Of a DNA stretch of 64,000 nucleotides, positions 4,651-18,683 are shown piece after piece (the first letter of the stretch is position 1; the number at the start of each line of letters is the position of its first letter). Below the pieces are notes generated by a model. It saw only the letters and a list, made by a program, of their open reading frames with translations. It had not been told where the DNA came from and did not search any database. A program made the position numbers and the translations under genes. This DNA comes from a virus, in IMG/VR virus record IMGVR_UViG_3300021422_000208, positions 716-64,715 of that record. One strand, given 5' to 3'.

Positions 4651-7600
4651 ATGAGTTGGCGGAAATATTTTACCCCAGTTGACACTGAACTAAGTCCTAT
4701 TTCTGGACTTAGTAATTTGACCAAAGCAGGTCCAGCTAGAACTAACTATTCCAGCTATCTACCTGATGTGTACACGGGTAGTCCCAACCGAGTGGAACGG
4801 TACCAGCAGTATGAAGTTATGGATAGTGATCCAGAAGTAAATGCTGCCCTTGACATTCTAGCAGAATTTTGTACACAAAAATTAAAGGATGGAAAAAGCC
4901 CCTTTACTGTGAAATGGAGAAGCAAAGCTACGAATTCTGAAATTCGTATTCTGGGTGAATATCTACAGCAATGGAATAAATTGCAACAATTTGATACTCG
5001 TATTTTCCGTGTAATTCGTAATGTTTACAAATACGGTGATGCTTTTTTCATCAGAGATCCAGAAACACAAAAATTAAGTTGGGTTGACCCCAGTAAGATT
5101 GTTAAAATTATTGTCAACGAAAGTGATGGTAAAAAACCTGAACAATATATCATAAAAGATCTAGCGCCAAATTTTGAAAATTTAGTGGTAACACAAATTA
5201 CACCTAATATTAATTCAAGGCAAGCAGGTGGCGGCATGACTTCCGGTGCTGGTGCCTTGGGTTCACAAAGTGCACAACGAGGTGCGTCAGGTCCATACCC
5301 AAGTAGCAGTACTGGTAGTAGATTTGGATTGGCTGAAACTGAACATGCCATAGATGCAGCGCATGTTGTCCATATATCATTATCCGAAGGTCTCGATAAC
5401 AATTATCCATTTGGCAATAGTTTATTGGAAAATGTCTTTAAGGTTTATAAACAAAAAGAATTGCTTGAAGATGCTGTATTGATATATCGCATTCAACGGG
5501 CACCTGAGCGTAGAGTATTCCACATAGACACTGGTAATATGCCTAGTCATATGGCAATGGCATTTGTTGAACGTGTCAAGAATGAAATACATCAACGAAG
5601 AATACCTAGCCAATCCGGCGGTGGATGTTTTGAAATGAGCACTCGAATTCCATTGTTGGATGGCAGGATACTTTCAATTTCAGAATTGGCACTTGAATAC
5701 TCAGCCGGTAAGGAAAACTGGGCATATAGTTGTGATCCAATTAATCTGACAATTGTTCCTGGTATAATTTCATGGGCGGGTATAACACAACAATCCGCAC
5801 AGGTAATTGAGCTTATTCTTAGTAATGGGTCAATCATTGTGTGTACACCTGAACATAAATTTCCAACAGTTAATCGCGGTGAAGTCGTGGCATCTGAATT
5901 AATTTTACACGATGATAGTTTAATTGGCTTTAATGGTGAATTAAATCCACTTGGTAACGACACAATACATACAGTCGTATCTAGTCGCATATTAGATGAC
6001 TTAATTGAAGTTGGTACGTTAACTATCGATGGTGATGAAAAACAACATGCACATCATACATTTGCGATAGAACAAGGTGTCTATACATATAATTCAAATG
6101 TCATTGATTCCGCCTATAATCCACTCTGCTTAGACCTGTTAACCGAGATCCCATTACTAGATGGTAGAATTTTGACATTATCTGAATTAATATCTGAATT
6201 TGAAGCAGGCAAGGAGAACTGGGCATATAGTTGCGAACCTACAACTGGTAAAGTTGTACCAGGAATCATTAATTGGGCAGGCGTTACTCGTAAAAATGCG
6301 GACGTTATTAAGATAACATTCGATAATGGTAAGACTTTAACCTGCACACCTGATCATAAAATACCTGTATTTGACAAGGGTTTTGTTGAAGCAAGTGAAT
6401 TGACCATTGATGATGTTTTAATGTCATTTAATACTAGGTTGGAGTCAGTTAATGCTTCGCAATTGCAGCAGGTATGGGATCACGAAGCTAAATCTTGGGT
6501 ATGGACACGTCAATTAGTTGGCGATTTTTTCAAAGCCATTAGTAAACACCAGGAATTTACTTACCTGGAAGAAAATATAAATGCTGTCAAAACTGTAATT
6601 CATAACAAAGACGGTGATATATCCAATAATGACCCACGTAATTTATCATACATGAATAAAAAAGATCATATTTCGTATTTTAATGAGCAATTTGATTTTG
6701 ATGTCACCGGCGATATTGAATATTTGGAAGAGAACATTTTACCAATCGGGAAATCTGTCAGTAACATTAGGATCGCTAGTATTGAAAAAGTTCAATGTAT
6801 GGATGTTGGTACAATTACAATTGATGGCACTGGTAGATGGCATTCATATCATACATTTGCTATTAATAGTGGTATTTTTGTCAAAAATTCAATAAATGAA
6901 GATTATTTTTTCCCAATGACTGCCGATGGTCGTGGTAGCAAGGTAGATGTGTTACCGGGTGGATGTTTCGCGATGGACACTCAAGTATCATTACTAGATG
7001 GCCGTGAATTATCCATTACCGATATTGGGCATGAATTAAAATCTGGAAAAGAATTATGGACATACTCATGCCACCCAACGACCGGTGCTATTGTACCTGG
7101 GTTAATTAGTTGGGCAGGGGTTACACAAGCATCAGCCAAGGTTATGAAAATAACACTTGATAACGGCGAGGCTATTATATGTACCCCATGTCATAAATTT
7201 CCGCAGTATGCAAATGAATATAAACGCGCAGGGAATTTTGCGGTAGGTGATAGTCTTATTCCGATGTATCGGAAACATGAAACATTATCCAATGATAGTA
7301 ATCACGAATATGAACAAATATTCGATAACGCAACAAATAATTGGGTATTTACCCACATGATGGTGGCTGAAAATCTCAAAGATACCAGAATTAGTTATAA
7401 TATACACAATACCAATGTCCGTGAAGTCGGTACTGTTAAATTTAAAAAATTAGCAGATACAACGATCCTATCGAAAAATGGAATCGGTGATAGCCGCATG
7501 AAATATTGGTCTGGTAAACATCGTAAAAGTCGAATTAATTTATCAGCTTCACAATCAAAGATAGTTTGGTCAGATAAATTGGGGTCGTTAAAATGTAAAT

Positions 7601-8637
7601 CACCACGTCCAGTCGAGTATTCTCATGCTATACTACTGGCAGTTATTGATATGATCAAAGATACAACCGCTCATAGTTTTACCTGCAATGATGTCATCAA
7701 TGAATTAAATAACAGACCAGAACTATTGGCAAAATTGCGTGAATTAAATAAATTTTCACAAACTAATAATTGGTCAATCAATGATGGATTCACTGCGGTT
7801 GGGATAGTCGATATGATCACTCAATTTGGGTATGACAATTGGACTGATTTTAGAAATAAAGAAAGTACACATAATCATCGGATAATTGCAATTGAACATT
7901 TAGATGAAGAAATTGAAGTTGGTACATTAACTATTGATTTTGATGAAGAATTTCATAATTACCATACATTTGCGTTGTCAGCTGGTGTTATGACTTTCAA
8001 CAGTAACCTCGGCGAAATTGATGATTTAAAATATTTTACTAATAAATTATTCCGTGGTTTACGAATTCCTAGTAGTTATTTACCAACCGGTGCAGATGAT
8101 AGCCAAGCCAGTTTCAATGATGGACGGGTCGGGACTGCTTATATTCAAGAATTGCGGTTTAATAAATATTGTGAACGATTGCAATGGTTGATGACATCAG
8201 TATTTGATGATGAATTTAAACTATACATGAATTCACGTGGTGTGAATATTGATGCTAATTTATTTGAGTTAAACTTCAATCCACCCATGAATTTCGCGAG
8301 TACTAGACAGAGTTCATTGGATAGTGAACGCATTAATACATTTTCAACTATTCAAGCGATTCCATTTATGAGTAATCGATTTGCTTTAAAACGATTTTTA
8401 GGATTAACTGATGATGAAGTTGCTGAAAATGAACAATTATGGGCGGAGGAAAATGGTAAAGGTCAAGCAACCCATACTGATGCCGCCGGTGAATTGCGTA
8501 GTGCTGGATTATCCGCAGCCGGTATAGCTGGTGATTTGGACATGGCCACTGATATGTCTGCCCCAGATGATATGGAAGGGGATATAACTGGTGAATCAGG
8601 GGCAGCGCCAGCGCCAGTAATTCCACCGATGACATAA
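4651..8637 (+). CDS. gp20: Portal protein (gp20-like) precursor containing three inteins; predicted spliced product 572 aa
   Basis: Portal motifs LEDAVLIYRIQRAPERRVFHIDTGNMP, SINEDYFFP..GRGSKVDVLPGG, NLGEIDDLKYFTNKLFRGLRIPSS. First gene of the head cluster. Confidence 0.92.
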   Translation: MSWRKYFTPVDTELSPISGLSNLTKAGPARTNYSSYLPDVYTGSPNRVERYQQYEVMDSDPEVNAALDILAEFCTQKLKDGKSPFTVKWRSKATNSEIRILGEYLQQWNKLQQFDTRIFRVIRNVYKYGDAFFIRDPETQKLSWVDPSKIVKIIVNESDGKKPEQYIIKDLAPNFENLVVTQITPNINSRQAGGGMTSGAGALGSQSAQRGASGPYPSSSTGSRFGLAETEHAIDAAHVVHISLSEGLDNNYPFGNSLLENVFKVYKQKELLEDAVLIYRIQRAPERRVFHIDTGNMPSHMAMAFVERVKNEIHQRRIPSQSGGGCFEMSTRIPLLDGRILSISELALEYSAGKENWAYSCDPINLTIVPGIISWAGITQQSAQVIELILSNGSIIVCTPEHKFPTVNRGEVVASELILHDDSLIGFNGELNPLGNDTIHTVVSSRILDDLIEVGTLTIDGDEKQHAHHTFAIEQGVYTYNSNVIDSAYNPLCLDLLTEIPLLDGRILTLSELISEFEAGKENWAYSCEPTTGKVVPGIINWAGVTRKNADVIKITFDNGKTLTCTPDHKIPVFDKGFVEASELTIDDVLMSFNTRLESVNASQLQQVWDHEAKSWVWTRQLVGDFFKAISKHQEFTYLEENINAVKTVIHNKDGDISNNDPRNLSYMNKKDHISYFNEQFDFDVTGDIEYLEENILPIGKSVSNIRIASIEKVQCMDVGTITIDGTGRWHSYHTFAINSGIFVKNSINEDYFFPMTADGRGSKVDVLPGGCFAMDTQVSLLDGRELSITDIGHELKSGKELWTYSCHPTTGAIVPGLISWAGVTQASAKVMKITLDNGEAIICTPCHKFPQYANEYKRAGNFAVGDSLIPMYRKHETLSNDSNHEYEQIFDNATNNWVFTHMMVAENLKDTRISYNIHNTNVREVGTVKFKKLADTTILSKNGIGDSRMKYWSGKHRKSRINLSASQSKIVWSDKLGSLKCKSPRPVEYSHAILLAVIDMIKDTTAHSFTCNDVINELNNRPELLAKLRELNKFSQTNNWSINDGFTAVGIVDMITQFGYDNWTDFRNKESTHNHRIIAIEHLDEEIEVGTLTIDFDEEFHNYHTFALSAGVMTFNSNLGEIDDLKYFTNKLFRGLRIPSSYLPTGADDSQASFNDGRVGTAYIQELRFNKYCERLQWLMTSVFDDEFKLYMNSRGVNIDANLFELNFNPPMNFASTRQSSLDSERINTFSTIQAIPFMSNRFALKRFLGLTDDEVAENEQLWAEENGKGQATHTDAAGELRSAGLSAAGIAGDLDMATDMSAPDDMEGDITGESGAAPAPVIPPMT
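5626..6093 (+). mobile_element. Intein 1 (mini-intein, 156 aa)
   Basis: Begins CFEMSTRIPLLDGR after GGG, has block B CTPEHKF, ends HHTFAIEQGVYTYN followed by Ser. Confidence 0.9.
6127..6888 (+). mobile_element. Intein 2 (254 aa) with a degenerate HNH-like insert
   Basis: Begins CLDLLTEIPLLDGR, block B CTPDHKI, insert VIHNKDGDISNNDPRNLSYMNKKDH, ends YHTFAINSGIFVKN followed by Ser. Confidence 0.9.
6964..8001 (+). mobile_element. Intein 3 (346 aa) with a basic, probably decayed endonuclease insert
   Basis: Begins CFAMDTQVSLLDGR, block B CTPCHKF, ends YHTFALSAGVMTFN followed by Ser. Confidence 0.9.
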
Positions 8638-9863: not shown

Positions 9864-10490
9864 ATGTTACATCTCCGGGAACATCTTAGTTTTAATGAAG
9901 CTAAAATGATCGTTGAATCGGATGATAAGGATGGCAAAAGTTTGTATATGAGTGGTATTTGTATACAAGGTGGCATCCGAAATGCCAATCAACGTGTATA
10001 CCCCGTTAATGAAATTGGCAAGGCTGTCAAAACACTGAATGACCAAATACAAAATGGCTATTCAGTGCTCGGCGAAGCCGATCATCCAGATGATCTTAAA
10101 ATTAACCTAGATCGTGTGTCACATATGATAACAAGCATGTGGATGGACGGTCCAAATGGTTATGGTAAATTAAAAATTTTACCAACCCCAATGGGCCAAC
10201 TCATAAAAACTATGCTGGAAAGCGGTGTTAAATTGGGGGTCTCATCACGGGGATCAGGAAACGTCAGTAGTGACGGTTCAAATGAAGTATCAGATTTTGA
10301 GATTATCACAGTGGATATGGTAGCACAACCATCCGCTCCAGGCGCATACCCAACGCCTATTTATGAACATTTATTGAATAGCCGTGGTGGATATAATGCA
10401 ATGCGAGTGGCAGGTGAAGTCACCGGTGATCCAAGAGCACAGAAATATCTCAAAGAAACCCTATTGTCACTGATAGGTAATCTAAAATGA
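9864..10490 (+). CDS. gp21: Prohead protease (gp21-like)
   Basis: NANQRVYP, LGEADHP, LGVSSRGSG and DMVAQPSAPGAYP motifs. Confidence 0.92.
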   Translation: MLHLREHLSFNEAKMIVESDDKDGKSLYMSGICIQGGIRNANQRVYPVNEIGKAVKTLNDQIQNGYSVLGEADHPDDLKINLDRVSHMITSMWMDGPNGYGKLKILPTPMGQLIKTMLESGVKLGVSSRGSGNVSSDGSNEVSDFEIITVDMVAQPSAPGAYPTPIYEHLLNSRGGYNAMRVAGEVTGDPRAQKYLKETLLSLIGNLK

Positions 10491-11612: not shown

Positions 11613-12779
11613 ATGTCAGAACTACTTAATGGCCGTTGGGCGGAAACTAAAGAAGCCCTATTAGAAGGTCTACAAGGCACTAAAAAATCAGTAATGGGTG
11701 TAACATTAGAAAACACTCGTAAATATTTGCTAGAATCACCAACGGCAGGTGCTACTTCTGCTGGCAATGTCGCAACATTGAATCGCGTTATTTTGCCAGT
11801 TATTCGTCGTGTGATGCCAACCGTCATCGCTAATGAATTGGTTGGCGTACAACCAATGACTGGCCCAGTTGGTCAAATCCACACTTTGCGGGTTCGTTAT
11901 TCTGATACATCAGCATCAGCTGGCGTTGTGTCCGGTGAAGAAGCATTGAGTCCATTTAAAATTGCCGAAGCCTACTCCGGTAGCGCAGCTGGTAAAGCAG
12001 CGTCAACTGCCACTTTAGAAGGTCAAGCTGGAAACAGGATGAGTATCCAAATCTTGAAACAAACTGTCGAAGCAAAAACTCGTAAATTGAGTGCTCGTTG
12101 GACATTTGAATCAGCGCAAGATGCCCAAGCTCAGCAAGGTATCGATGTCGAAGCAGAAATTATGGCTGCTTTGGCCCAAGAAATCACTGCTGAAATTGAC
12201 CAAGAAATCTTAGCTTCATTGAGTTCATTAGCTGGTTCAGCTTCGCAAACTTATGACCAAGCTAATGTTTCAGGTACTGCTACTTTCGTCGGTGATGAAC
12301 ATGCTGCTTTGGCTATCCAAATCAATCGTGTTTCTAACTTGATTGCACAACGTACACGTCGTGGCGCAGGTAACTGGGCAGTCGTTAGTCCGTTTGCTTT
12401 GACTATCCTGCAATCTGCTACTACTTCGGCTTTTGCTCGTACTACTGAAGGAACTTTTGAAGCACCTACAAATACAAAATTTGTCGGTACATTGAATAAC
12501 GCACTGAAAGTATACGTAAATAGCTATGCTAACGATTCAACTCCTATCCTAGTCGGTTATAAAGGTGGTTCTGAATCTGATGCTGCTGCTTTCTACTGCC
12601 CATATATCCCATTGATGTCAAGTGGTGTAGTATTAGACCCATCTACATTTGAACCAACTGTTAGCTTCATGACACGTTATGGCTATGTTGAATTGTCTAA
12701 TGTTGCAAGTAGTCTTGGGAATGCTGCAGACTACTTGGGTAAAGTCGCAATTACTGATGGAAATGTTAGATTTAGTTAA
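11613..12779 (+). CDS. gp23: Major capsid protein (gp23-like, compact 388 aa)
   Basis: ILPVIRRVMPTVIANELVGVQPMTGPVG, VEAKTRKLSARWT, FYCPYIPL and FMTRYG motifs; AAGGAG RBS. Confidence 0.95.
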   Translation: MSELLNGRWAETKEALLEGLQGTKKSVMGVTLENTRKYLLESPTAGATSAGNVATLNRVILPVIRRVMPTVIANELVGVQPMTGPVGQIHTLRVRYSDTSASAGVVSGEEALSPFKIAEAYSGSAAGKAASTATLEGQAGNRMSIQILKQTVEAKTRKLSARWTFESAQDAQAQQGIDVEAEIMAALAQEITAEIDQEILASLSSLAGSASQTYDQANVSGTATFVGDEHAALAIQINRVSNLIAQRTRRGAGNWAVVSPFALTILQSATTSAFARTTEGTFEAPTNTKFVGTLNNALKVYVNSYANDSTPILVGYKGGSESDAAAFYCPYIPLMSSGVVLDPSTFEPTVSFMTRYGYVELSNVASSLGNAADYLGKVAITDGNVRFS

Positions 12780-12806
12780 TTAAATTATTTTAATAATTTA
12801 ACCCAT

Positions 12807-12830
12807 AAAAGCCACCCTTGGGTGGCTTTT
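12807..12830. terminator. Bidirectional intrinsic terminator
   Basis: AAAA GCCACCC tt GGGTGGC TTTT, between gp23 and the convergent minus-strand ORFs. Confidence 0.9.
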
Positions 12831-12841
12831 ATGTTTCCTAC

Positions 12842-13015
12842 TTATTTTAATTTACAATTATCACCGTACCATCTGACATGCATGCCAATACTTGTAAGTT
12901 TCCCGCAGTGAACACACGTTGCTTTTTGTTGTGATGGATGTGTACCATTAGCTAACATCTTAAGGTTTGTAGCAGCCCCTGTGACATTATGAGTACCTGC
13001 TGAAAATTTACTCAT
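12842..13015 (-). pseudogene. Homing-endonuclease C-terminal fragment (CxxC zinc-ribbon-like tail)
   Basis: 57-aa ORF MSKFSAGTHN...NGTHPSQQKATCVHCGK...RWYGDNCK, similar in pattern to the tail of the 55195-55437 remnant. Confidence 0.55.
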
Positions 13016-13016
13016 G

Positions 13017-13268
13017 TTAGTTGCCTATTCGTTGATATTTAAAAAAGTCTCCTGATCTCATGGCTTCGTGATCTGAAATATCAGGACAGTAACCGTAACA
13101 ACTACGGTTGTTCTTCAGATACTCCCCCGCACTGACCATCTTGCTTAATGCTTGTTCTTGCTTTGGGGAACACCAACCTTGCTTCTCAACACTACAGCCG
13201 AACAATCTATAACCAAAGCCAAGGTTTTTTGCTTTTTCTATTGTATCTATCTGATATTCTGTAAACAT
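13017..13268 (-). CDS. Hypothetical protein (83 aa)
   Basis: GGAG RBS before MFTEYQIDT at 13268. Confidence 0.6.
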   Translation of the reverse strand: MFTEYQIDTIEKAKNLGFGYRLFGCSVEKQGWCSPKQEQALSKMVSAGEYLKNNRSCYGYCPDISDHEAMRSGDFFKYQRIGN

Positions 13269-13339
13269 GGCGTATTCTCCAGGTTTGTTTACCATAATGA
13301 TCACGCAGATATCGTCATTCTAATTAATGCCGGTTCATC

Positions 13340-13469
13340 TATTGCATATTCAAGAATTTCTCTGGTGAGAGTGGATTTATCTAATATGGATCTAGGCCAT
13401 TTCTGTACCATGCCTACCGATGTAATACTTTCCATTTACATGAGTTGTTTTGTAAATAATGCACTTCAT
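13340..13469 (-). pseudogene. GIY-YIG endonuclease N-terminal remnant
   Basis: MKCIIYKTTHVNGKYYIGRHGT then stop (13392); DKSTLTREILEY continues in another frame. Confidence 0.65.
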
Positions 13470-13541
13470 TTCACTTATTACTTTTTTCCGTATTTTCATA
13501 TATTCAATAATCCTAATTAAATAATAATTTAGATGATGTTA

Positions 13542-13570
13542 ATTATAACGTGATTATCAAACAAATACAA
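13542..13570 (-). promoter_or_regulatory. Possible sigma70 promoter
   Basis: TTGTAT-17-TATAAT pointing at the GIY-YIG remnant. Confidence 0.45.
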
Positions 13571-13754
13571 GGGGAAATTATATTATTAGAAGGTGTGATA
13601 ATTAGATCTCCATCCTATATTAGTGGGTGGTTATGTGAGGGAACTAAAGTTCCCTAGTGGCATCGCATAGTTCTACCAGAATCGCTATCGCTCACTGGTT
13701 TCACTATTGCTCTCCCACATTTCTTTTCTTTTAATTTTTTAAAGATAATAATGC

Positions 13755-13825
13755 TGTTATAATAATCTCTAAAGTAATTTCTATGATGATCTCTATGATG
13801 ATGTTATAATAATTTCTAAAGTAAT
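13755..13825 (+). repeat. AT-rich direct repeats TGTTATAATAAT(C/T)TCTAAAGTAAT x2 enclosing TCTATGATGAT x2
   Basis: Copies at 13755-13778 and 13802-13825 (23/24 identical); 11-mers at 13780 and 13792. Confidence 0.85.
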
Positions 13826-14350
13826 AATGGTAGAAGTGGTTTCTTTACCACTATCTTCATGTAGATTACGAGCACTACTTTGCCTATGAAAGACAAAGTA
13901 ATAAAATTTTTTGCTTCGTTCCTCATGTGAGTTGACTTCGCACTAGCGTTAGGACTACTATATATCACACGTCTATTACTGGTATTAATATAAACTACTG
14001 ATTTGTAATTTCCTATTAACCATTTTTAATACATGTATTTAAATGATATATAACGCAGGCGGTCATCCGGTACCTGCTCATCCCGTCTTTGAATATGACG
14101 GCGGCTATTATACAAACGCTAAGTTCTTGCATAATAACGTAGGGCATTGATTGCCCTTCTTTTAGCCTTTTTTAGTACCAAATACAACTAAAACCAATTA
14201 ATATGAAGGCATATCTGGTCGTCGTCCTGTTAAGGATAGTTAGTTGCATCACTGCTACAGCGCAGCATTCCCTCAATGCGGAGTACATCCCATTGCCAAG
14301 GGCACCTATTTGAATTACCGGTGCGAGTTTTATCTGTAGTAAATTAATCA

Positions 14351-14471
14351 GCCTAAGTTTGTTCGTTTCTTGCCTGGGTTTTTTGTACTGCTGCCTAGAG
14401 TTTTTGTCTTGCTTCCCTGATATGCCACCGCGACTAGTTGTTCGTGCCTAGAGTTTTTGTCTAACTGCCTA
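14351..14471. repeat. Phased GCCT(A/G) repeat array, including an exact 18-bp repeat TGCCTAGAGTTTTTGTCT x2
   Basis: Motif starts at 14351, 14372, 14393, 14446 and 14467 (spacings 21, 21, 53, 21); exact copies at 14392-14409 and 14445-14462. Confidence 0.85.
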
Positions 14472-14480
14472 TAAGTACCG

Positions 14481-14509
14481 ATTATACATGAAAGCATAAT
14501 CGGTGTCAA
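14481..14509 (-). promoter_or_regulatory. Perfect consensus sigma70 promoter overlapped by a 9-bp inverted repeat
   Basis: TTGACA (14509-14504), 17 nt, TATAAT (14486-14481); ACCGATTAT (14477-14485) / ATAATCGGT (14496-14504). Confidence 0.85.
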
Positions 14510-14564
14510 GCTTTATTTTAAATTATTTTGAATTAAGTTGAATTAAGTTCATAATAGGTATGTA

Positions 14565-16133
14565 TTATTTCACCCATCGTTTTTTACCGCAGTCCCATAT
14601 TTTTAATAATCCTAATTCTTTAGTAATTTCTATTACTGATTTGTTGATGGTGTCATGACCTTTATCTTTTAGTTTTTGTTTTGAAAAGTTAAATCGGTGG
14701 TATAGATGTTCACTGCGTGGGGTCACGTACCAATAGCTAGGTGGTATTTCTCGTTCTAGGGTAAATCCCAGTATTTTGTATAAATTCCCATCACTCCATT
14801 CGTTATCTGAGTATGAGACTATTTTTGTTGGGTTATGTAATTTTATAAAGTGGTGTAATAATCGACTGGCGCCACCCATTACTCTATGTGATGAGGCATA
14901 TCTTATTAATTCGACACCATCTTCGAAATTGCCTATTCCTATTCTAGATTTGCCAAAGGTCATTAGGCTGACTAATTCATCATTATATACTAGGCCATAC
15001 TTGAATGAGCTAGCGGCGTATCCTTGAACGTGATTAGCGGTTAAGAACTGTTTCGCGATGGTTGCATCTATTGATTTAATTTTACATTTCCTAGCATGTA
15101 TGGCAGTTGGTGATATTCCTATTTTATTGACAAGTGCTTGTTTAACTATTGGTTTTTTAAGATTCCAGAAATTAGAAAATATTGTTATTAATTGGATGTT
15201 TAGATCTGCGCATTCTTTGAATTTTTCATAGTGGTATGTTTTGGTTATGTGTGAAATTGCTTCATGATGCCAGTATACGCCGTTATATTCTATTGCGATA
15301 TTAAAATCTGGGAGGTATATATCAATCTCCCGTCTACTTGGTAATAATTTTCTAGTATTTTGTATGATATTAGTAACGCCGAGTTCATTTAAAAATCTTA
15401 TGATTTCCCGTTCTGGTTCACTTTTAAAAGGTTCTCGTAATTTATGTAAATTTAGGTATCGATATATTGTTTGTACATGAACCTCCAGTAAGGTGGCTAA
15501 TTCATATGGGTTCATTGTTTGGTATAATTTTTCTAATTCGGCTTTGTCATTTAAAATAAATAGATTTGGGTTATTATAACGTTCGACCCAGTATGCTGTT
15601 TTATATTTTTCTTTATATGTTGCCTTCATTTTATCTGCGTTATTGTATGAAGCATTGCCATATTTGATTAATTTAGTATTAGCTACTTTTTTGACAATAT
15701 TAGCAACTTTCCCGGCATTGGTATATGTGGCATTGTGTGATTGAATGGCATTGATTGATTGGCCAACGTTGGGTACGCCGTATTTTTCAAGGTTAGTGGT
15801 AGATCGTTTGTTATTAGTTATTAATTTATTGGCGATGGTAGTTTTTGATTTTGTAATTGAAACGCCATTGCTGACTAATTCATTAGTGCATTTGCATACA
15901 CTTGCTCTGCCGCATCCAATAAATCCAGTTGATATTGAATTAAATTTTTTAACGTTTCCATATTTACAAATATTTGATTGTTGGTATATGGCACTGAATA
16001 TATTTGCTGGTAGGTAGTCGGATATTATTAACGAATGTTCTGTAACCCAGTTTAGTAAATCGGCATTGTTAGTGATTAGTTTAGCGTAATGTTTTGGTTT
16101 ATTGGTTATTAATGTTATGATTTCAGCCTTCAT
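14565..16133 (-). CDS. Hef-like putative homing endonuclease (PD-(D/E)XK nuclease plus GNAT/Mom-like C-terminal domain)
   Basis: EKYGVPN/KYGNASYNN repeats, EIDIYLPDFNIAIEYNGVYWH, IHARKCKI..FLTANHVQG, GGASRLL..VSYSD..YKILGF, IWDCG. Confidence 0.75.
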   Translation of the reverse strand: MKAEIITLITNKPKHYAKLITNNADLLNWVTEHSLIISDYLPANIFSAIYQQSNICKYGNVKKFNSISTGFIGCGRASVCKCTNELVSNGVSITKSKTTIANKLITNNKRSTTNLEKYGVPNVGQSINAIQSHNATYTNAGKVANIVKKVANTKLIKYGNASYNNADKMKATYKEKYKTAYWVERYNNPNLFILNDKAELEKLYQTMNPYELATLLEVHVQTIYRYLNLHKLREPFKSEPEREIIRFLNELGVTNIIQNTRKLLPSRREIDIYLPDFNIAIEYNGVYWHHEAISHITKTYHYEKFKECADLNIQLITIFSNFWNLKKPIVKQALVNKIGISPTAIHARKCKIKSIDATIAKQFLTANHVQGYAASSFKYGLVYNDELVSLMTFGKSRIGIGNFEDGVELIRYASSHRVMGGASRLLHHFIKLHNPTKIVSYSDNEWSDGNLYKILGFTLEREIPPSYWYVTPRSEHLYHRFNFSKQKLKDKGHDTINKSVIEITKELGLLKIWDCGKKRWVK

Positions 16134-16141
16134 ATATTCTC

Positions 16142-17581
16142 CTATGTGTGTAAAATAAAGATTTCATTGCCGCAGTCCCAGTAGCGTCTATAATTTGCGT
16201 TGAACATATTTACTGCTTCGGATAAGTTAGGGTCGAAGGTAGTCAGCCATTTTTGTAAATTTGATTTTTGACTTTTGTATCTACTGATTACATTATTGCC
16301 ATTGGTCCAAATATAGCCTGGTTTTGTTGTTCCGATTGAATTGAATCCAGCTTTTGTATATCCAATGCCAGTGCCCTTGGCTAGATCGCAATAGCTGACG
16401 ATGACTGACGATGGGTATAATTTTTTTAAGTAGGATATTAACTTACTGACCCCGCCATTTACTGTTGTATCAGATTTGGCGCACATTCGCAATAATTCAT
16501 AATCATATGCTGTGTTAAATCGTGATTTTCCGATGGACATCATCATTACTAATTCAGATTTATAAAATAGGCCAAATGCTGATGTGGATGCGATGAATCC
16601 TTGGATATGATATTTTTCTAGGAATTCTCGTTCGATTTTTTTATCTATAATTTGGATAGTGCATTGTCTTGCGTGAATTCTTGAATTCAGACCGGTTCGT
16701 GAACGGATGATTGATTTAATTATGTCTTGTTTAAATTTCCATTCGTAGTCGGTTATGTGAAGCAGTGTGACACCATTTTTGGCAGCATTGATTGTTTTGT
16801 TTATATGTTGATTTCTATCTTCTTTTTTCCCACTTGATGGATGATGACTATGCCATCTTAGTCCATTCACTTCAAATGCTAGGTTTAATGATGGAATTAC
16901 TATATCCAATTCTTTGGGTGCAATAATTAATCTATTTGATGCTTCGATAGTCAGCCCCATGCTTGTTATATATTTACCGATATGAATCTCATCGAGTGAT
17001 TTCAATGCGGTTGGTCTTATAATAAATTCAAATTTTCGACAATATTCTGCGACAGTTGAGTAATAAATATTTAATTCATCGGCTATATCTGTCAATGACC
17101 GTTTGTTAATGTTATATTCAGTGTTTAGCCAATGGTAATCAGTTAATTTTTCATGTGTGGATGACAATATTTTTGGTTTATTCCATATGTGTTTTTTATC
17201 TACGCGTTGGCTATTGAATGCAACTCCGTATTTTGACAGCATGGTAGCAATGCGTTTGGTATTTGAATTATTTTTATCTTCGTTGGTAATTTTTGATTTT
17301 GTCATTGTCATTGAAGATGAGATACTTTCGGCGGTACATTTGCAAACATTGGCTGGCCCGCATCCTAAAAACCCAGTGCTTATTCTATCAAACTTTTTGA
17401 GGTTTCCATATTGGCAAATATTTGATTGCTGGTATATGGCGCTAAAAATATTTGATGGTAGATGATCGGACATTATCAATGAGTTCTCGGTGATCCAATT
17501 GAGATATTCAGCATTTTTAGTAATTATTTTAGTGTAGTGTTTTGGTTTATTGGTTATTAATGTTAGAATTTCAGCCTTCAT
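16142..17581 (-). CDS. Second Hef-like putative endonuclease, paralogue of 14565-16133
   Basis: Near-identical N-terminus; ELDIVIPSLNLAFEVNGLRWH, IHARQCTI, GGVSKLI..VSYCD, YWDCG. Confidence 0.75.
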   Translation of the reverse strand: MKAEILTLITNKPKHYTKIITKNAEYLNWITENSLIMSDHLPSNIFSAIYQQSNICQYGNLKKFDRISTGFLGCGPANVCKCTAESISSSMTMTKSKITNEDKNNSNTKRIATMLSKYGVAFNSQRVDKKHIWNKPKILSSTHEKLTDYHWLNTEYNINKRSLTDIADELNIYYSTVAEYCRKFEFIIRPTALKSLDEIHIGKYITSMGLTIEASNRLIIAPKELDIVIPSLNLAFEVNGLRWHSHHPSSGKKEDRNQHINKTINAAKNGVTLLHITDYEWKFKQDIIKSIIRSRTGLNSRIHARQCTIQIIDKKIEREFLEKYHIQGFIASTSAFGLFYKSELVMMMSIGKSRFNTAYDYELLRMCAKSDTTVNGGVSKLISYLKKLYPSSVIVSYCDLAKGTGIGYTKAGFNSIGTTKPGYIWTNGNNVISRYKSQKSNLQKWLTTFDPNLSEAVNMFNANYRRYWDCGNEIFILHT

Positions 17582-17630: not shown

Positions 17631-17683
17631 ATAAGTCTGGTCTATTTTGTAATCTAAAAGGCTAAATACCTTTGTCTATTAAC

Positions 17684-17736
17684 CTTGCTTCGGTGAGTAT
17701 TATGCTGTACCCCCACAGCGTAGACGAAAAAACGTC
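17684..17736 (+). promoter_or_regulatory. Three-hairpin 5' leader
   Basis: CTTGC-TTCG-GTGAG; TATGCTGT-acccc c-ACAGCGTA; GACG-aaaaaa-CGTC; between TAAATA (17663) and the RBS. Confidence 0.55.
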
Positions 17737-17753
17737 AACTAAGGAGAAATCAA

Positions 17754-18683
17754 ATGGGACGACCTTTAAATAAAAAATATTTCGGGAATCGCAATGTCGG
17801 TTCACTGAGCGTAACAACTGACAATGGTATTGGTGGTGCAAGTGTAGCAAGTGCGGCGATTGCCACTCCAAGTTCCTATACTGCTAGACCTACTTTTGCA
17901 TTTTCCACACCATCCTTGCCAACTGGCGTACTTGCGACTGGCGGTATTGTGTCTGAGGTTTTAAGTGCTGCTGTAAGTGGTACTCAGACCGGTACTTATG
18001 TTATTGGTGATTTGATAACAATATCAACTGCTGGCGGTTCTGCAATTGCTTATGTGGCTGATGTATTAGTAGGTGCTGTAGTTTCGGTGAATTTCACTGG
18101 CACTGGTGCTACTCGTGGTAGTTTTACAACACTGGGCACTGTCACTACTACTGGTGGTTCTGGTGTTGGTGTAGTATTGGCACCAACTTATCAGGCATTA
18201 TCGGTAACAATTACTGAGCCTGGAAGTGGGTACGTGGCTGCACCAACAATTGCGACTGGTCCAAGTCAGGGTGTTGCTATTAATCTAATTATATTAACTG
18301 TTGATTCTGGTTTTGTTGGTACAGTTTTGAATCAAGAAAATGCAATTGTGGCATATGCTTACACTGGGTCGAGTAGCAAGATAGCTGATATCGTTAAGCA
18401 AGTGGCAAGTCGTCGTTATTTGGTAAACACGGTAGATACTGCTGGTGTTGCAGTAGCGGCAAAACTGAAATCATCTGCTGCGATTGCTGCTGGTGAGATG
18501 ACTGTAATGGCAACTGATGCGAATGGTAACACTTATTTTGTCACGAAGTTAACTTCGCATAAAGCATTGCTTACTCAAGGTGTGCAAAGTGGTAGTAATG
18601 CTTGGTTGTATGCCACTGGTGAGACAGCTCCGTGGAAATTTGCAGTGGCAGCTGGTGTATATGTTCAGATAGAAAATAATTAA
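17754..18683 (+). CDS. Virion structural protein (T/G/V-rich)
   Basis: Late promoter and AAGGAG RBS; MGRPLNKKYFG start; beta-rich composition. Confidence 0.65.
   Translation: MGRPLNKKYFGNRNVGSLSVTTDNGIGGASVASAAIATPSSYTARPTFAFSTPSLPTGVLATGGIVSEVLSAAVSGTQTGTYVIGDLITISTAGGSAIAYVADVLVGAVVSVNFTGTGATRGSFTTLGTVTTTGGSGVGVVLAPTYQALSVTITEPGSGYVAAPTIATGPSQGVAINLIILTVDSGFVGTVLNQENAIVAYAYTGSSSKIADIVKQVASRRYLVNTVDTAGVAVAAKLKSSAAIAAGEMTVMATDANGNTYFVTKLTSHKALLTQGVQSGSNAWLYATGETAPWKFAVAAGVYVQIENN

What the first reader, a model, noticed from the sequence alone, without database searches (positions are those of the whole stretch)
13600..14474. ~0.9-kb promoter-driven, hairpin-rich non-coding locus: candidate new large phage RNA
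Seen: the only long ORF-free stretch in a densely coding window. It starts just downstream of a perfect TTGACA-17-TATAAT and is GC-richer than its flanks. Stems: GCAGG/CCTGC with nested CGG/CCG (14055-14077), CCGTC/GACGG, AGGGCA/TGCCCT, GCATT/AATGC, GCACC/GGTGC, AGTGGT/ACCACT (13835-13852), ACTTTG/CAAAGT (13877-13899) and AGGGAACT/AGTTCCCT (13638-13655). Known: phages carry large ornate RNAs (GOLLD, ROOL) and RNA-primed origins. It shows no tRNA, tmRNA, RNase P or intron hallmarks I can recognise. It lies directly downstream of two nuclease genes, so an RNA-protein partnership is possible but speculative.
Basis: partly seen in the sequence, partly recalled or inferred. Interest (0 to 1): 0.76.

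Follow-up and report, generated by a model that had tools for sequence, protein, structure and literature searches.

The report
Relocated Polynucleobacter-1 large phage RNA
The gene-free stretch encodes a real, large, doubly knotted non-coding RNA of an uncultured freshwater giant T4-like phage; its first part is the catalogued but unexplained Polynucleobacter-1 motif, and the only unusual thing here is that it sits away from its usual nuclease-gene neighbour, behind its own perfect promoter.

Summary
A perfect TTGACA-17-TATAAT (14509-14481) points into an ORF-free stretch, and seven of the eight listed stems are conserved helices. It is not a new class. Rfam 15 places Polynucleobacter-1 (RF01718; 68.4 bits, threshold 37) at 14329-14182.

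Comparison with about 60 phage and metagenome loci shows that the RNA is much longer than the Rfam model:
- a 5' pseudoknot strand at 14339-14334;
- a covarying 3' tail to 14049;
- a second pseudoknot (14121-14115 with 13950-13944);
- two modules with identical boxes;
- a GAGCGAUAGCGAU hairpin and a terminal hairpin (13655-13638).

The locus is about 700 nt, or about 840 nt from the predicted start. This scan has already met the same extended RNA in over 100 genomes.

What is special here is the context. Everywhere else the RNA starts on the stop codon of a small GIY-YIG gene after gp47/gp46. Here it lies behind two Hef-like homing endonuclease genes, in an island after the capsid gene, with its own promoter. 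The Hef partnership is not supported.

Caveat: the last 55 nt of the locus are repeated, inverted, at the contig's first base, so the downstream join or the copy number is uncertain. Function is unknown.

The parts
14481..14509 (-). Perfect sigma-70-type promoter TTGACA-17-TATAAT. The predicted start is near 14474. An AT-rich, UP-like stretch with 10-nt tandem repeats lies upstream at 14510-14564.
   Evidence: The best promoter-like site in the same position of 37 other loci scores only 7-9 of 12.
14340..14474 (-). Leader peculiar to this copy. It is C/A-rich and holds three 25-nt direct repeats (14371-14395, 14392-14416, 14445-14469). It is unusually unstructured.
   Evidence: family D2. (z = +2.84; all 200 shuffles fold better). 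An 18-nt core of the repeat was not found in viral contigs.
14334..14339 (-). 5' strand CUACAG of pseudoknot 1. It pairs with CUGUAG (14260-14255) in the loop of the third hairpin of the Rfam model. It lies outside the Rfam model.
   Evidence: 100% of 138 cells paired on a sequence-only alignment. One pair shows GC, CG, UA and AU. Slid controls pair 11-69%.
14182..14329 (-). Match to Rfam RF01718, the Polynucleobacter-1 RNA. It covers the full model, positions 1-141.
   Evidence: 68.4 bits, gathering score 37, E = 6.5e-14.
14049..14183 (-). Conserved 3' tail: GGC/GCC closing helix; hairpin 14157-14141; long hairpin about 14138-14106; hairpin 14101-14083; hairpin 14077-14055 with the invariant loop GGUAC..ACCGCC.
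   Evidence: Model R1 finds the tail full-length next to the core in every true locus. 94% of cells pair, 21 of 30 pairs have compensatory changes, slid controls pair 33-51%.
13944..14121 (-). Pseudoknot 2: loop UAGCGUU (14121-14115) pairs with AACGCUA (13950-13944). A lineage-specific hairpin lies in between, closed by 14052-14044 with 13967-13959.
   Evidence: 92% paired, 4 of 7 pairs with compensatory changes, slid controls 16-54%. for coordinates.
13855..13945 (-). Twin modules around the hairpin 13899-13877. Box UAGUGC occurs at 13945-13940 and 13877-13872. Box ACAUGA occurs at 13928-13923 and 13862-13857.
   Evidence: the second box is identical in both modules of each genome and differs between genomes (AGAUAAU, AGAUGAU, AGAUGAG, GAAUAAU, GGAUAAU; here ACAUGA). 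for coordinates.
13835..13852 (-). Hairpin AGUGGU/ACCACU after module 2. Relatives have a UUCG-type hairpin at the same place.
13699..13834 (-). AT-rich spacer with two 31-nt direct repeats (13748-13778, 13795-13825). It is not conserved. Relatives have a shorter variable spacer here.
13636..13698 (-). 3' end of the locus: hairpin CCAG..CUGG (13698-13676) presenting GAGCGAUAGCGAU, then the terminal hairpin AGGGAACU/AGUUCCCU (13655-13638).
   Evidence: a GAGC..GCGA motif followed by a terminator-like hairpin lies 419-496 nt from the RNA start in 26 of 37 other unique loci. In several of them an ATAAATA late-promoter-like box follows. In the window the motif is 632 nt from the start.
13625..13679 (.). 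55-nt stretch that is repeated exactly, in inverted orientation, at the first 55 nt of the contig (G000:C1:1-55). It marks a repeat or an assembly junction.
   Evidence: Another record (G004) ends with the same 55-mer, preceded by tandem copies of the 37-nt unit seen once at 13579-13624.
13468..13530 (-). Decayed remnant of a Hef-like C-terminus, with stops. It is 75% identical to the last 21 codons of the 522-aa gene (14629-14567).
   Evidence: (family D1).
14565..17581 (-). Two paralogous Hef-like homing endonuclease genes (522 aa at 14565-16133; 479 aa at 16142-17581) upstream of the RNA on the same strand. They are context, not part of the RNA.
   Evidence: 36% identity; PHROG 3339/559; 40% to the 'Hef-like homing endonuclease' of phage PA5oct.

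Best explanation
The stretch is a gene, on the minus strand, for the extended form of the Polynucleobacter-1 RNA. This is a large, doubly pseudoknotted non-coding RNA typical of uncultured freshwater T4-like jumbo phages.

Shown:
- The RNA body runs from 14339 to about 13636, roughly 700 nt.
- It keeps every family element: the Rfam core, the tail, two pseudoknots, the twin-box modules, the GAGCGAUAGCGAU hairpin and the terminal hairpin. It is therefore an intact copy, not a relic.

Inferred:
- It is transcribed early by host RNA polymerase from the perfect sigma-70 promoter at 14509-14481, as a free-standing transcript with a 135-nt unstructured leader.
- In relatives it is probably co-transcribed with a small GIY-YIG gene, whose stop codon overlaps its 5' pseudoknot strand.
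- Because it occurs here without that gene and with its own promoter, it most likely acts in trans, as a folded scaffold.
- My best guess at the mechanism is that the scaffold displays two identical, genome-specific short boxes to a reader that is still unknown (a dimeric protein, or two copies of a nucleic acid). I give that roughly 0.3.

This copy lies in a roughly 5-kb island of homing-endonuclease genes between the capsid gene and the next structural gene. It probably arrived there by recombination.
For: Identity:
- RF01718 matches at 68.4 bits against a threshold of 37.
- The tail model scores 107 bits, but the window was one of the nine sequences the model was built from, so this match is by construction.
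- Tail covariation: 94% of cells pair and 21 of 30 pairs have compensatory changes.
- Pseudoknot 1 is 100% paired, with four pair types at one position, on an alignment not fitted to structure.
- Pseudoknot 2 is 92% paired, with 4 of 7 pairs compensatory.
- The twin boxes are identical within genomes and differ between them.
- The 3' hairpins are conserved in position.
- The strand is fixed by invariant U-G pairs.

Phage origin:
- gp23 capsid protein and gp21 protease. The capsid protein is 71% identical to that of Sinorhizobium jumbo phage Phosso.
- The RNA is present once above threshold in each of three metagenomic records of 223-259 kb.

Canonical context, in 31 viral loci and every metagenome locus with enough upstream DNA: gp47, gp46, an 88-aa gene, the GIY-YIG gene, the RNA, then the baseplate-hub gene. 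The GIY-YIG protein is 46% identical to PSSM2_218, the neighbour named by Weinberg et al..

Context here: Hef genes upstream. No GIY-YIG family match in the 72.8-kb record, though that search rang in no control genome either, so it is not validated. tblastn with the GIY-YIG proteins found nothing in the window.

The promoter is unique to this copy.
Against: - No transcript data could be obtained, so the promoter, the ends and the unity of the transcript are inferred.
- About 360 nt of the 840-nt unit are not conserved anywhere and may be mere spacer or DNA-level sites: the leader, a 95-nt hairpin insert and a 135-nt AT-rich repeat spacer.
- No classical terminator follows the terminal hairpin.
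- The 55-nt exact inverted repeat with the contig start makes the downstream neighbourhood and the copy number uncertain.
- The function is untested. The 'reader of twin boxes' idea has no direct support.
- Three isolated phages lack the RNA: two with related capsid genes (Phosso, Vibrio phage 2.275.O) and Melnitz, which encodes the closest GIY-YIG homologue among isolates. No cultured system is therefore at hand.
Confidence: 0.8

Rival explanations
1. The unusual position is an assembly ambiguity. The genome has one RNA locus whose 3' end runs into the 306-aa gene and the baseplate-hub gene at the contig's left end, which is the canonical downstream neighbourhood. The join at 13625 to the small ORFs and the capsid gene would then be a false path through a 55-nt repeat.
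For: - The contig's first 55 nt equal window 13679-13625 exactly, in inverted orientation. 55 is a usual de Bruijn k (my own knowledge).
- At the contig start the 55-mer is followed by CATAAATA and a gene, as in relatives, where the terminal hairpin is followed by ATAAATA and a gene.
- A second record ends at the same 55-mer.
Against: - That path would put g17754 and g18731 about 20 kb from the capsid gene and inverted. In G003, L008, L004 and L020 they follow the capsid gene directly or after a short island.
- Hef-like genes lie right after the capsid gene in L002, L003, L004 and L008.
- A decayed Hef 3' end at 13530-13468 mirrors the intact one at 14629-14567, so the RNA cassette is bracketed as the contig has it.
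- Even on this path the upstream side (Hef gene, promoter, RNA) stays non-canonical.
Confidence: 0.15
2. Only the first 300-500 nt are RNA. The leader repeats, the AT-rich repeats and the 55-mer are DNA-level elements that merely adjoin the RNA gene: operators or iteron-like sites, recombination cassettes like the promoter/stem-loop shuffling elements of T4-type phages, or a replication origin primed from the promoter.
For: - These parts have no counterpart in about 60 other loci.
- The 37-nt unit next to the 55-mer is tandemly amplified in another record.
- The leader avoids RNA structure.
Against: - The conserved 3' hairpins (13698-13638) lie beyond the AT-rich spacer, in the same order as in relatives, so the spacer sits inside the conserved locus.
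- Nothing shows origin function, and no replication genes lie nearby.
Confidence: 0.3
3. The RNA is a cis-acting leader (riboswitch-like or attenuator) for the small minus-strand ORFs at 13435-12842. In relatives it would regulate the next gene.
For: - Weinberg et al. 2010 scored the motif as possibly cis-regulatory.
- Three abutting small ORFs follow on the same strand.
Against: - In one large group of relatives nothing follows on the same strand; the next genes are on the opposite strand. In the other group the next gene has its own late-promoter-like box after a terminator-like hairpin.
- The downstream gene differs from genome to genome (families F17, F35, F39; the 306-aa gene here).
- About 200 nt separate the terminal hairpin from the first small ORF.
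Confidence: 0.07
4. One reading: the RNA is a partner (guide or cofactor) of the adjacent Hef-like nucleases.
For: Adjacency on one strand in this window only.
Against: - No Hef-like gene lies within the loci of about 60 other copies of the RNA.
- Nine loci with relatives of the Hef gene lack the RNA.
- Hef-like genes are common next to the capsid gene in this clade without it.
Confidence: 0.03

Closest known systems
Polynucleobacter-1 RNA motif (Rfam RF01718; Weinberg et al. 2010, Genome Biol 11:R31, PMC2864571)
   Same: - Full-length match above threshold.
- The same core helices and invariant stretches, such as ACUAUCCUUAACAGGACG.
- The same tail with a loop-to-downstream pseudoknot as in the authors' original alignment.
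- In relatives, the same neighbour gene family, PSSM2_218-like.
   Different: - The Rfam model holds only 141 positions.
- This RNA has a further 5' pseudoknot strand upstream of the model and about 400 nt more at the 3' end: the twin modules and the terminal hairpins.
- Weinberg et al. found it in no purified phage. Here it lies on jumbo-phage contigs.
- In this window the defining neighbour gene is missing.
Extended Polynucleobacter-1 phage RNA with twin boxes, as described by earlier reports of this scan on other genomes (for example e1-5411554, e1-5322448, e1-5389716). These are AI notes, not publications.
   Same: Two pseudoknots, twin identical co-varying boxes, occurrence in freshwater T4-like giant phages. 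I re-derived all of these here.
   Different: - Those copies are 390-530 nt and sit directly behind the GIY-YIG gene.
- This one is about 700 nt because of two insertions.
- It has its own consensus promoter and lies in a homing-endonuclease island after the capsid gene.
GOLLD and ROOL large ornate RNAs (Weinberg 2009/2010; cryo-EM in bioRxiv 10.1101/2024.12.08.627333, also held as PMC12286853)
   Same: Large, elaborately folded RNAs of unknown function, often phage-borne.
   Different: - No sequence or structure match in Rfam at E up to 10.
- No self-complementary loops that would suggest RNA-only multimers.
- Half the size or less.
HEARO / omega-RNA of IscB, an RNA associated with an HNH endonuclease
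   Same: A structured RNA next to a nuclease gene.
   Different: The association with either nuclease family is dispensable: the Hef genes are here only, and the GIY-YIG gene is absent here. No variable guide segment was seen. There is no Rfam match.

Membership tests
Polynucleobacter-1 RNA (RF01718) | Covariance-model score at or above the curated gathering score (37 bits) over the whole model | tested here: met
   68.4 bits, model positions 1-141 of 141, E = 6.5e-14.
Polynucleobacter-1 RNA (RF01718) | 3' tail with extra hairpins and a pseudoknot, as in the discoverers' full alignment | tested here: met
   The tail model R1 matches in full at 107 bits (the window was among its nine training sequences). 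Covariation. Pseudoknot.
Polynucleobacter-1 RNA (RF01718) | Position immediately downstream of a GOS11034 / PSSM2_218-like (small GIY-YIG) gene | tested here: not met
   The upstream gene is a Hef-like homing endonuclease gene. The 72.8-kb record gave no PF19835 match, though that search rang in no control genome. tblastn found nothing in the window. This feature is contextual, not structural, and the record is only about 20% of a genome.
Extended twin-box form of the RNA (earlier reports of this scan) | Two modules carrying the same short box, identical within a genome and variable between genomes | tested here: met
   ACAUGA at 13928-13923 and 13862-13857; five other box sequences in nine relatives.
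Extended twin-box form of the RNA (earlier reports of this scan) | GAGCG-N-GCGA hairpin plus a terminal hairpin at the 3' end | tested here: met
   13698-13676 and 13655-13638. The motif was found in 26 of 37 other unique loci with a strict pattern.
GOLLD / ROOL / other catalogued large RNAs; group I or II introns; tRNA, tmRNA, RNase P | Match to the family's covariance model | tested here: not met
   No Rfam match up to E = 10 in 13000-15000 other than RF01718 and chance snoRNA hits. ARAGORN found nothing.
Nuclease-guide RNA (HEARO/omega-RNA-like) | Obligatory linkage to one nuclease gene family | tested here: not met
   Hef-like genes are absent from all other RNA loci. The GIY-YIG gene is absent here.

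The most novel reading that the evidence does not exclude
The extended Polynucleobacter-1 RNA is a new functional class of phage ribonucleoprotein or guide-like RNA. A rigid, doubly knotted scaffold would show one genome-specific short code twice to a reader. This window's self-promoted copy, detached from the GIY-YIG gene, would be natural proof that the RNA works in trans and on its own. It could also be a second, differently timed copy produced by endonuclease-driven recombination.
Probability: 0.15. Interest if true: 0.75.

Novelty: new variant of a known kind. Interest (0 to 1): 0.42.

Why it matters
Polynucleobacter-1 has been an orphan motif since 2010. This window adds a natural experiment: an intact copy of the full-length RNA separated from the small GIY-YIG gene that otherwise always precedes it, and equipped with a consensus host-type promoter. 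That argues that the RNA is an independent gene product, not a 3' UTR or a regulator of that gene, and it offers a defined transcription unit for cloning and expression.

It also shows that the catalogued model covers only about a fifth of the locus (148 of about 700 nt) and misses a well-supported 5' pseudoknot.

The gain is modest. The same extended RNA has been found repeatedly in this scan, its function remains unknown, and the position of this copy needs read-level confirmation.

Tried and rejected
- **Decayed coding gene.** tblastn of both Hef proteins and the capsid protein against 12780-14564 found nothing beyond a 63-nt remnant, and all frames are full of stops.
- **Homologues among isolated phages.** blastn of the region found none. 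RF01718 is absent from Phosso, Vibrio phage 2.275.O and Melnitz.
- **Link between the Hef genes and the freshwater-2 motif.** This motif follows Hef relatives in L002 and L004. It turned out to belong to the leader of the next structural gene, so it is not a nuclease-RNA pattern.
- **tRNA neighbourhood.** None in the window or in 31 loci.
- **Promoter inside the GIY-YIG gene of relatives.** Only 7-9 of 12 matches.
- **Exact search for the leader repeat in viral contigs.** No match.
- **First pattern searches.** Two attempts with two variable gaps failed on the server. A simpler pattern worked. L016 and L032 of the viral scan, and many of the 85 metagenome matches, were chance hits: 29 of the 80 metagenome loci scanned matched the tail model.
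- **Right end of the contig and record G004.** They gave no clue to the missing neighbour.
- **My own first reading.** I first took the RNA to be 290 nt, ending at 14049. I dropped this after the earlier notes of this scan made me align further downstream.

Full report
**What the window is**

The window comes from a 72.8-kb IMG/VR record, estimated at about 20% of a genome. It carries a T4-type head module: prohead protease gp21 at 9864-10490 and major capsid protein gp23 at 11613-12779. The capsid protein is 67-71% identical to those of the 345-470-kb Rak2/GAP32/Phosso group of jumbo phages. It is 88-90% identical to those of uncultured contigs L008 and G003.

**Checking the observation**

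- No ORF of 60 aa or more lies between 13521 and 14564.
- The perfect TTGACA-17-TATAAT is real but on the minus strand, at 14509-14481. It is one of two in the window against 0.34 expected.
- Read on that strand, the two genes upstream (14565-16133 and 16142-17581) are paralogues, 36% identical. They belong to the Hef-like homing endonuclease group: PHROG 3339/559, and 40% identity to the 'Hef-like' gene of phage PA5oct.
- GC is raised only in 14100-14500.

**Identity of the RNA**

Rfam 15 gives one match above threshold in the whole window: Polynucleobacter-1 (RF01718) at 14329-14182, minus strand, 68.4 bits against a gathering score of 37, over the full model.

The discoverers reported the following (Weinberg et al. 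2010, PMC2864571, supplement):
- The motif occurs in Polynucleobacter and in lake and marine metagenomes.
- It lies mostly downstream of genes of family GOS11034, which resemble PSSM2_218 of cyanophage P-SSM2.
- It was found in no purified phage.
- A 3' half with extra stems and a pseudoknot is 'not always detected'.

**Collecting relatives**

A pattern from the invariant core (GTAGC-N13-ACTATCC-N4-6-GGACG) found 33 stretches in viral contigs, of which L016 and L032 did not align as relatives. It found 85 in metagenome contigs; a model of the tail confirmed 29 of the 80 metagenome loci scanned. Several lie on contigs of 160-260 kb. Each of three such records searched has one copy above threshold, and G001 has a second, sub-threshold match.

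**Extent and structure**

Similarity to the window first appeared to end at 14049.

The 3' tail (14183-14049):
- A covariance model built from nine sequences, the window among them, finds it full-length beside the core in every true locus.
- 94% of cells pair and 21 of 30 pairs show compensatory changes, against 33-51% pairing when partners are slid.
- This alignment was fitted to the model, which favours the structure.

Pseudoknot 1:
- Upstream of the Rfam model, CUACAG (14339-14334) pairs with CUGUAG (14260-14255) in the loop of the third hairpin.
- On a plain MAFFT alignment of 23 sequences all 138 cells pair. One position shows G-C, C-G, U-A and A-U, and the next shows G-C and A-U.
- This helix is outside the Rfam model and outside the motif limits in the original alignment.

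After earlier notes of this scan reported longer forms, I aligned further downstream. The window keeps the whole extension. In order:
- A lineage-specific hairpin, closed by 14052-14044 with 13967-13959.
- Pseudoknot 2: AACGCUA (13950-13944) pairs with the long-hairpin loop UAGCGUU (14121-14115). It is 92% paired, 4 of 7 pairs are compensatory, and slid controls pair 16-54%.
- Two modules around the hairpin 13899-13877. Each carries the box UAGUGC and the box ACAUGA.
- A hairpin at 13852-13835.
- An AT-rich spacer with two 31-nt repeats.
- A hairpin at 13698-13676 presenting GAGCGAUAGCGAU.
- The terminal hairpin at 13655-13638.

In nine relatives the second box reads AGAUAAU, AGAUGAU, AGAUGAG, GAAUAAU or GGAUAAU. 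It is always the same in both modules of one genome.

The locus is therefore about 700 nt against about 480-560 nt in relatives. The excess comes from the 95-nt hairpin insert and the roughly 135-nt spacer.

**Context**

In 31 viral loci, and in every metagenome locus with enough upstream DNA, the order is the same:
1. gp47 (SbcD-like)
2. gp46 (SbcC-like)
3. an 88-aa gene
4. a roughly 142-aa protein that is only a GIY-YIG domain (PF19835, PHROG 447)
5. the RNA, on the same strand
6. the baseplate-hub gene, on the other strand

The capsid gene lies 8-10 kb further on. The GIY-YIG protein is 46% identical to PSSM2_218, so this is the neighbourhood Weinberg et al. described. Its stop codon falls at or within a few nucleotides of the 5' pseudoknot strand, overlapping it in several loci. 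I found no good promoter in its 3' part.

The window differs:
- No GIY-YIG gene was detected in the record. The Pfam search rang in no control genome, so that result alone does not show absence.
- The RNA lies in a 4,974-nt minus-strand island between the capsid gene and g17754. The nearest long relative, G003, has 927 nt there and keeps its RNA in the canonical place.
- Relatives L002, L003, L004 and L008 also have Hef-like genes right after the capsid gene, but no Polynucleobacter-1 RNA there.
- None of the other RNA loci has a Hef-like gene.

The Hef genes belong to the capsid-gene neighbourhood, not to the RNA. A functional Hef-RNA pair is not supported.

A decayed copy of the Hef C-terminus at 13530-13468 mirrors the intact end at 14629-14567. 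The promoter-RNA cassette is therefore bracketed by a 63-nt duplication, as if it had been inserted at the 3' end of a Hef gene.

**A caveat on the assembly**

The first 55 nt of the contig are identical, in inverted orientation, to window 13679-13625, the last 55 nt of the RNA locus. At the contig start this 55-mer is followed by CATAAATA, a 306-aa gene and the baseplate-hub gene. That is what normally follows the RNA.

Another record, G004, ends with the same 55-mer. There it is preceded by six tandem copies of a 37-nt unit that occurs once at 13579-13624.

Three readings are possible:
- The genome holds two copies of at least the RNA's 3' end, one canonical and one in the island.
- Only a remnant remains at the canonical site.
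- The path through the repeat is wrong.

Synteny of the capsid gene with g17754 and with the Hef genes, and the bracketing duplication, favour the contig as assembled. I give the false-path reading about 0.15. Either way, the upstream side (Hef gene, promoter, RNA) lies in unique sequence.

**How it probably works**

What is shown is a strongly constrained fold: two pseudoknots, invariant loops, and twin boxes that change together.

What is inferred:
- It is expressed early from the sigma-70 promoter.
- The primary transcript is about 840 nt, and its 135-nt leader is unusually free of structure (z = +2.84).
- It acts in trans. I infer this for two reasons. The RNA is intact here without its usual upstream gene. 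And no consistent gene follows it on the same strand in relatives.
- I favour a scaffold that shows two identical short sequences to a genome-specific reader, but only at about 0.3.
- A cis-regulatory role, an origin-like role for the repeats, and an RNA-only assembly like GOLLD or ROOL are less well supported (see rivals).

**Novelty**

- The family is known, but its catalogued model covers only 148 of the roughly 700 nt.
- The extension is unpublished as far as the one paper that names the motif shows.
- This scan has already reported the extension many times on other DNA: 180 notes in at least 107 genomes.
- What this window adds is the relocated, self-promoted copy, the 5' pseudoknot measured on an unfitted alignment, and the repeat junction.

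Noticed in passing
window 17683-17756 (+); L008 7830-7900; L004 3754-3840; L002 9028-9113: A freshwater-2 RNA motif (RF02980) lies directly upstream of, and reaches into, the start of gene 17754-18683. In the window it scores 43.6 bits, below the gathering score of 49.9. It scores 45.9 bits in L008, also below threshold, and is above threshold in L002 and L004. In L008, as in the window, it sits just before the homologue of this gene, so it looks like a conserved leader of that structural gene.
   Followed up: partly
G000:C1:1-55 and window 13625-13679; L140 12244-12552: An exact 55-nt inverted repeat links the contig start and the end of the RNA locus. Record G004 ends with the same 55-mer, after about six tandem copies of a 37-nt unit (GTGTGATAATTAGATCTCCATCCTATATTATTAGCAG) that occurs once in the window. 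It is either a repeated, possibly recombinogenic, element or an assembly junction.
   Followed up: partly
window 4651-8637: The 1328-aa ORF matches a 564-aa protein of relatives in three separate pieces (residues 1-315, 327-351, 353-559). It therefore carries large in-frame inserts. Earlier notes of this scan read them as portal inteins.
   Followed up: no
L051 (G001:C1:60700-60848): One 259-kb relative has a second, very divergent match to RF01718 (24 bits). It keeps the invariant CACUAUCCUUUACAGGACG hairpin but lies in a different neighbourhood. It may be a distant paralogue of the RNA.
   Followed up: no
window 12804-12833: A perfect 14-nt inverted repeat (CATAAAAGCCACCC/GGGTGGCTTTTATG) sits between the capsid gene and the converging minus-strand small ORFs (12842-13435). 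It looks like a bidirectional terminator.
   Followed up: no
window 12842-13435 (-): Three abutting small ORFs (44, 95 and 57 aa). The 95-aa ORF has no Pfam or PHROG match, and none of the three has a relative in the related loci. They overlap a 122-aa plus-strand ORF. Which of these is real was not settled.
   Followed up: partly
L052 (Methylophilales phage Melnitz-3, MZ577098.1 30449-30889): The closest isolate homologue of the small GIY-YIG protein (66% identity) is in a cultured marine methylophage that lacks the RNA. That phage could serve as a test bed for the protein without the RNA.
   Followed up: partly
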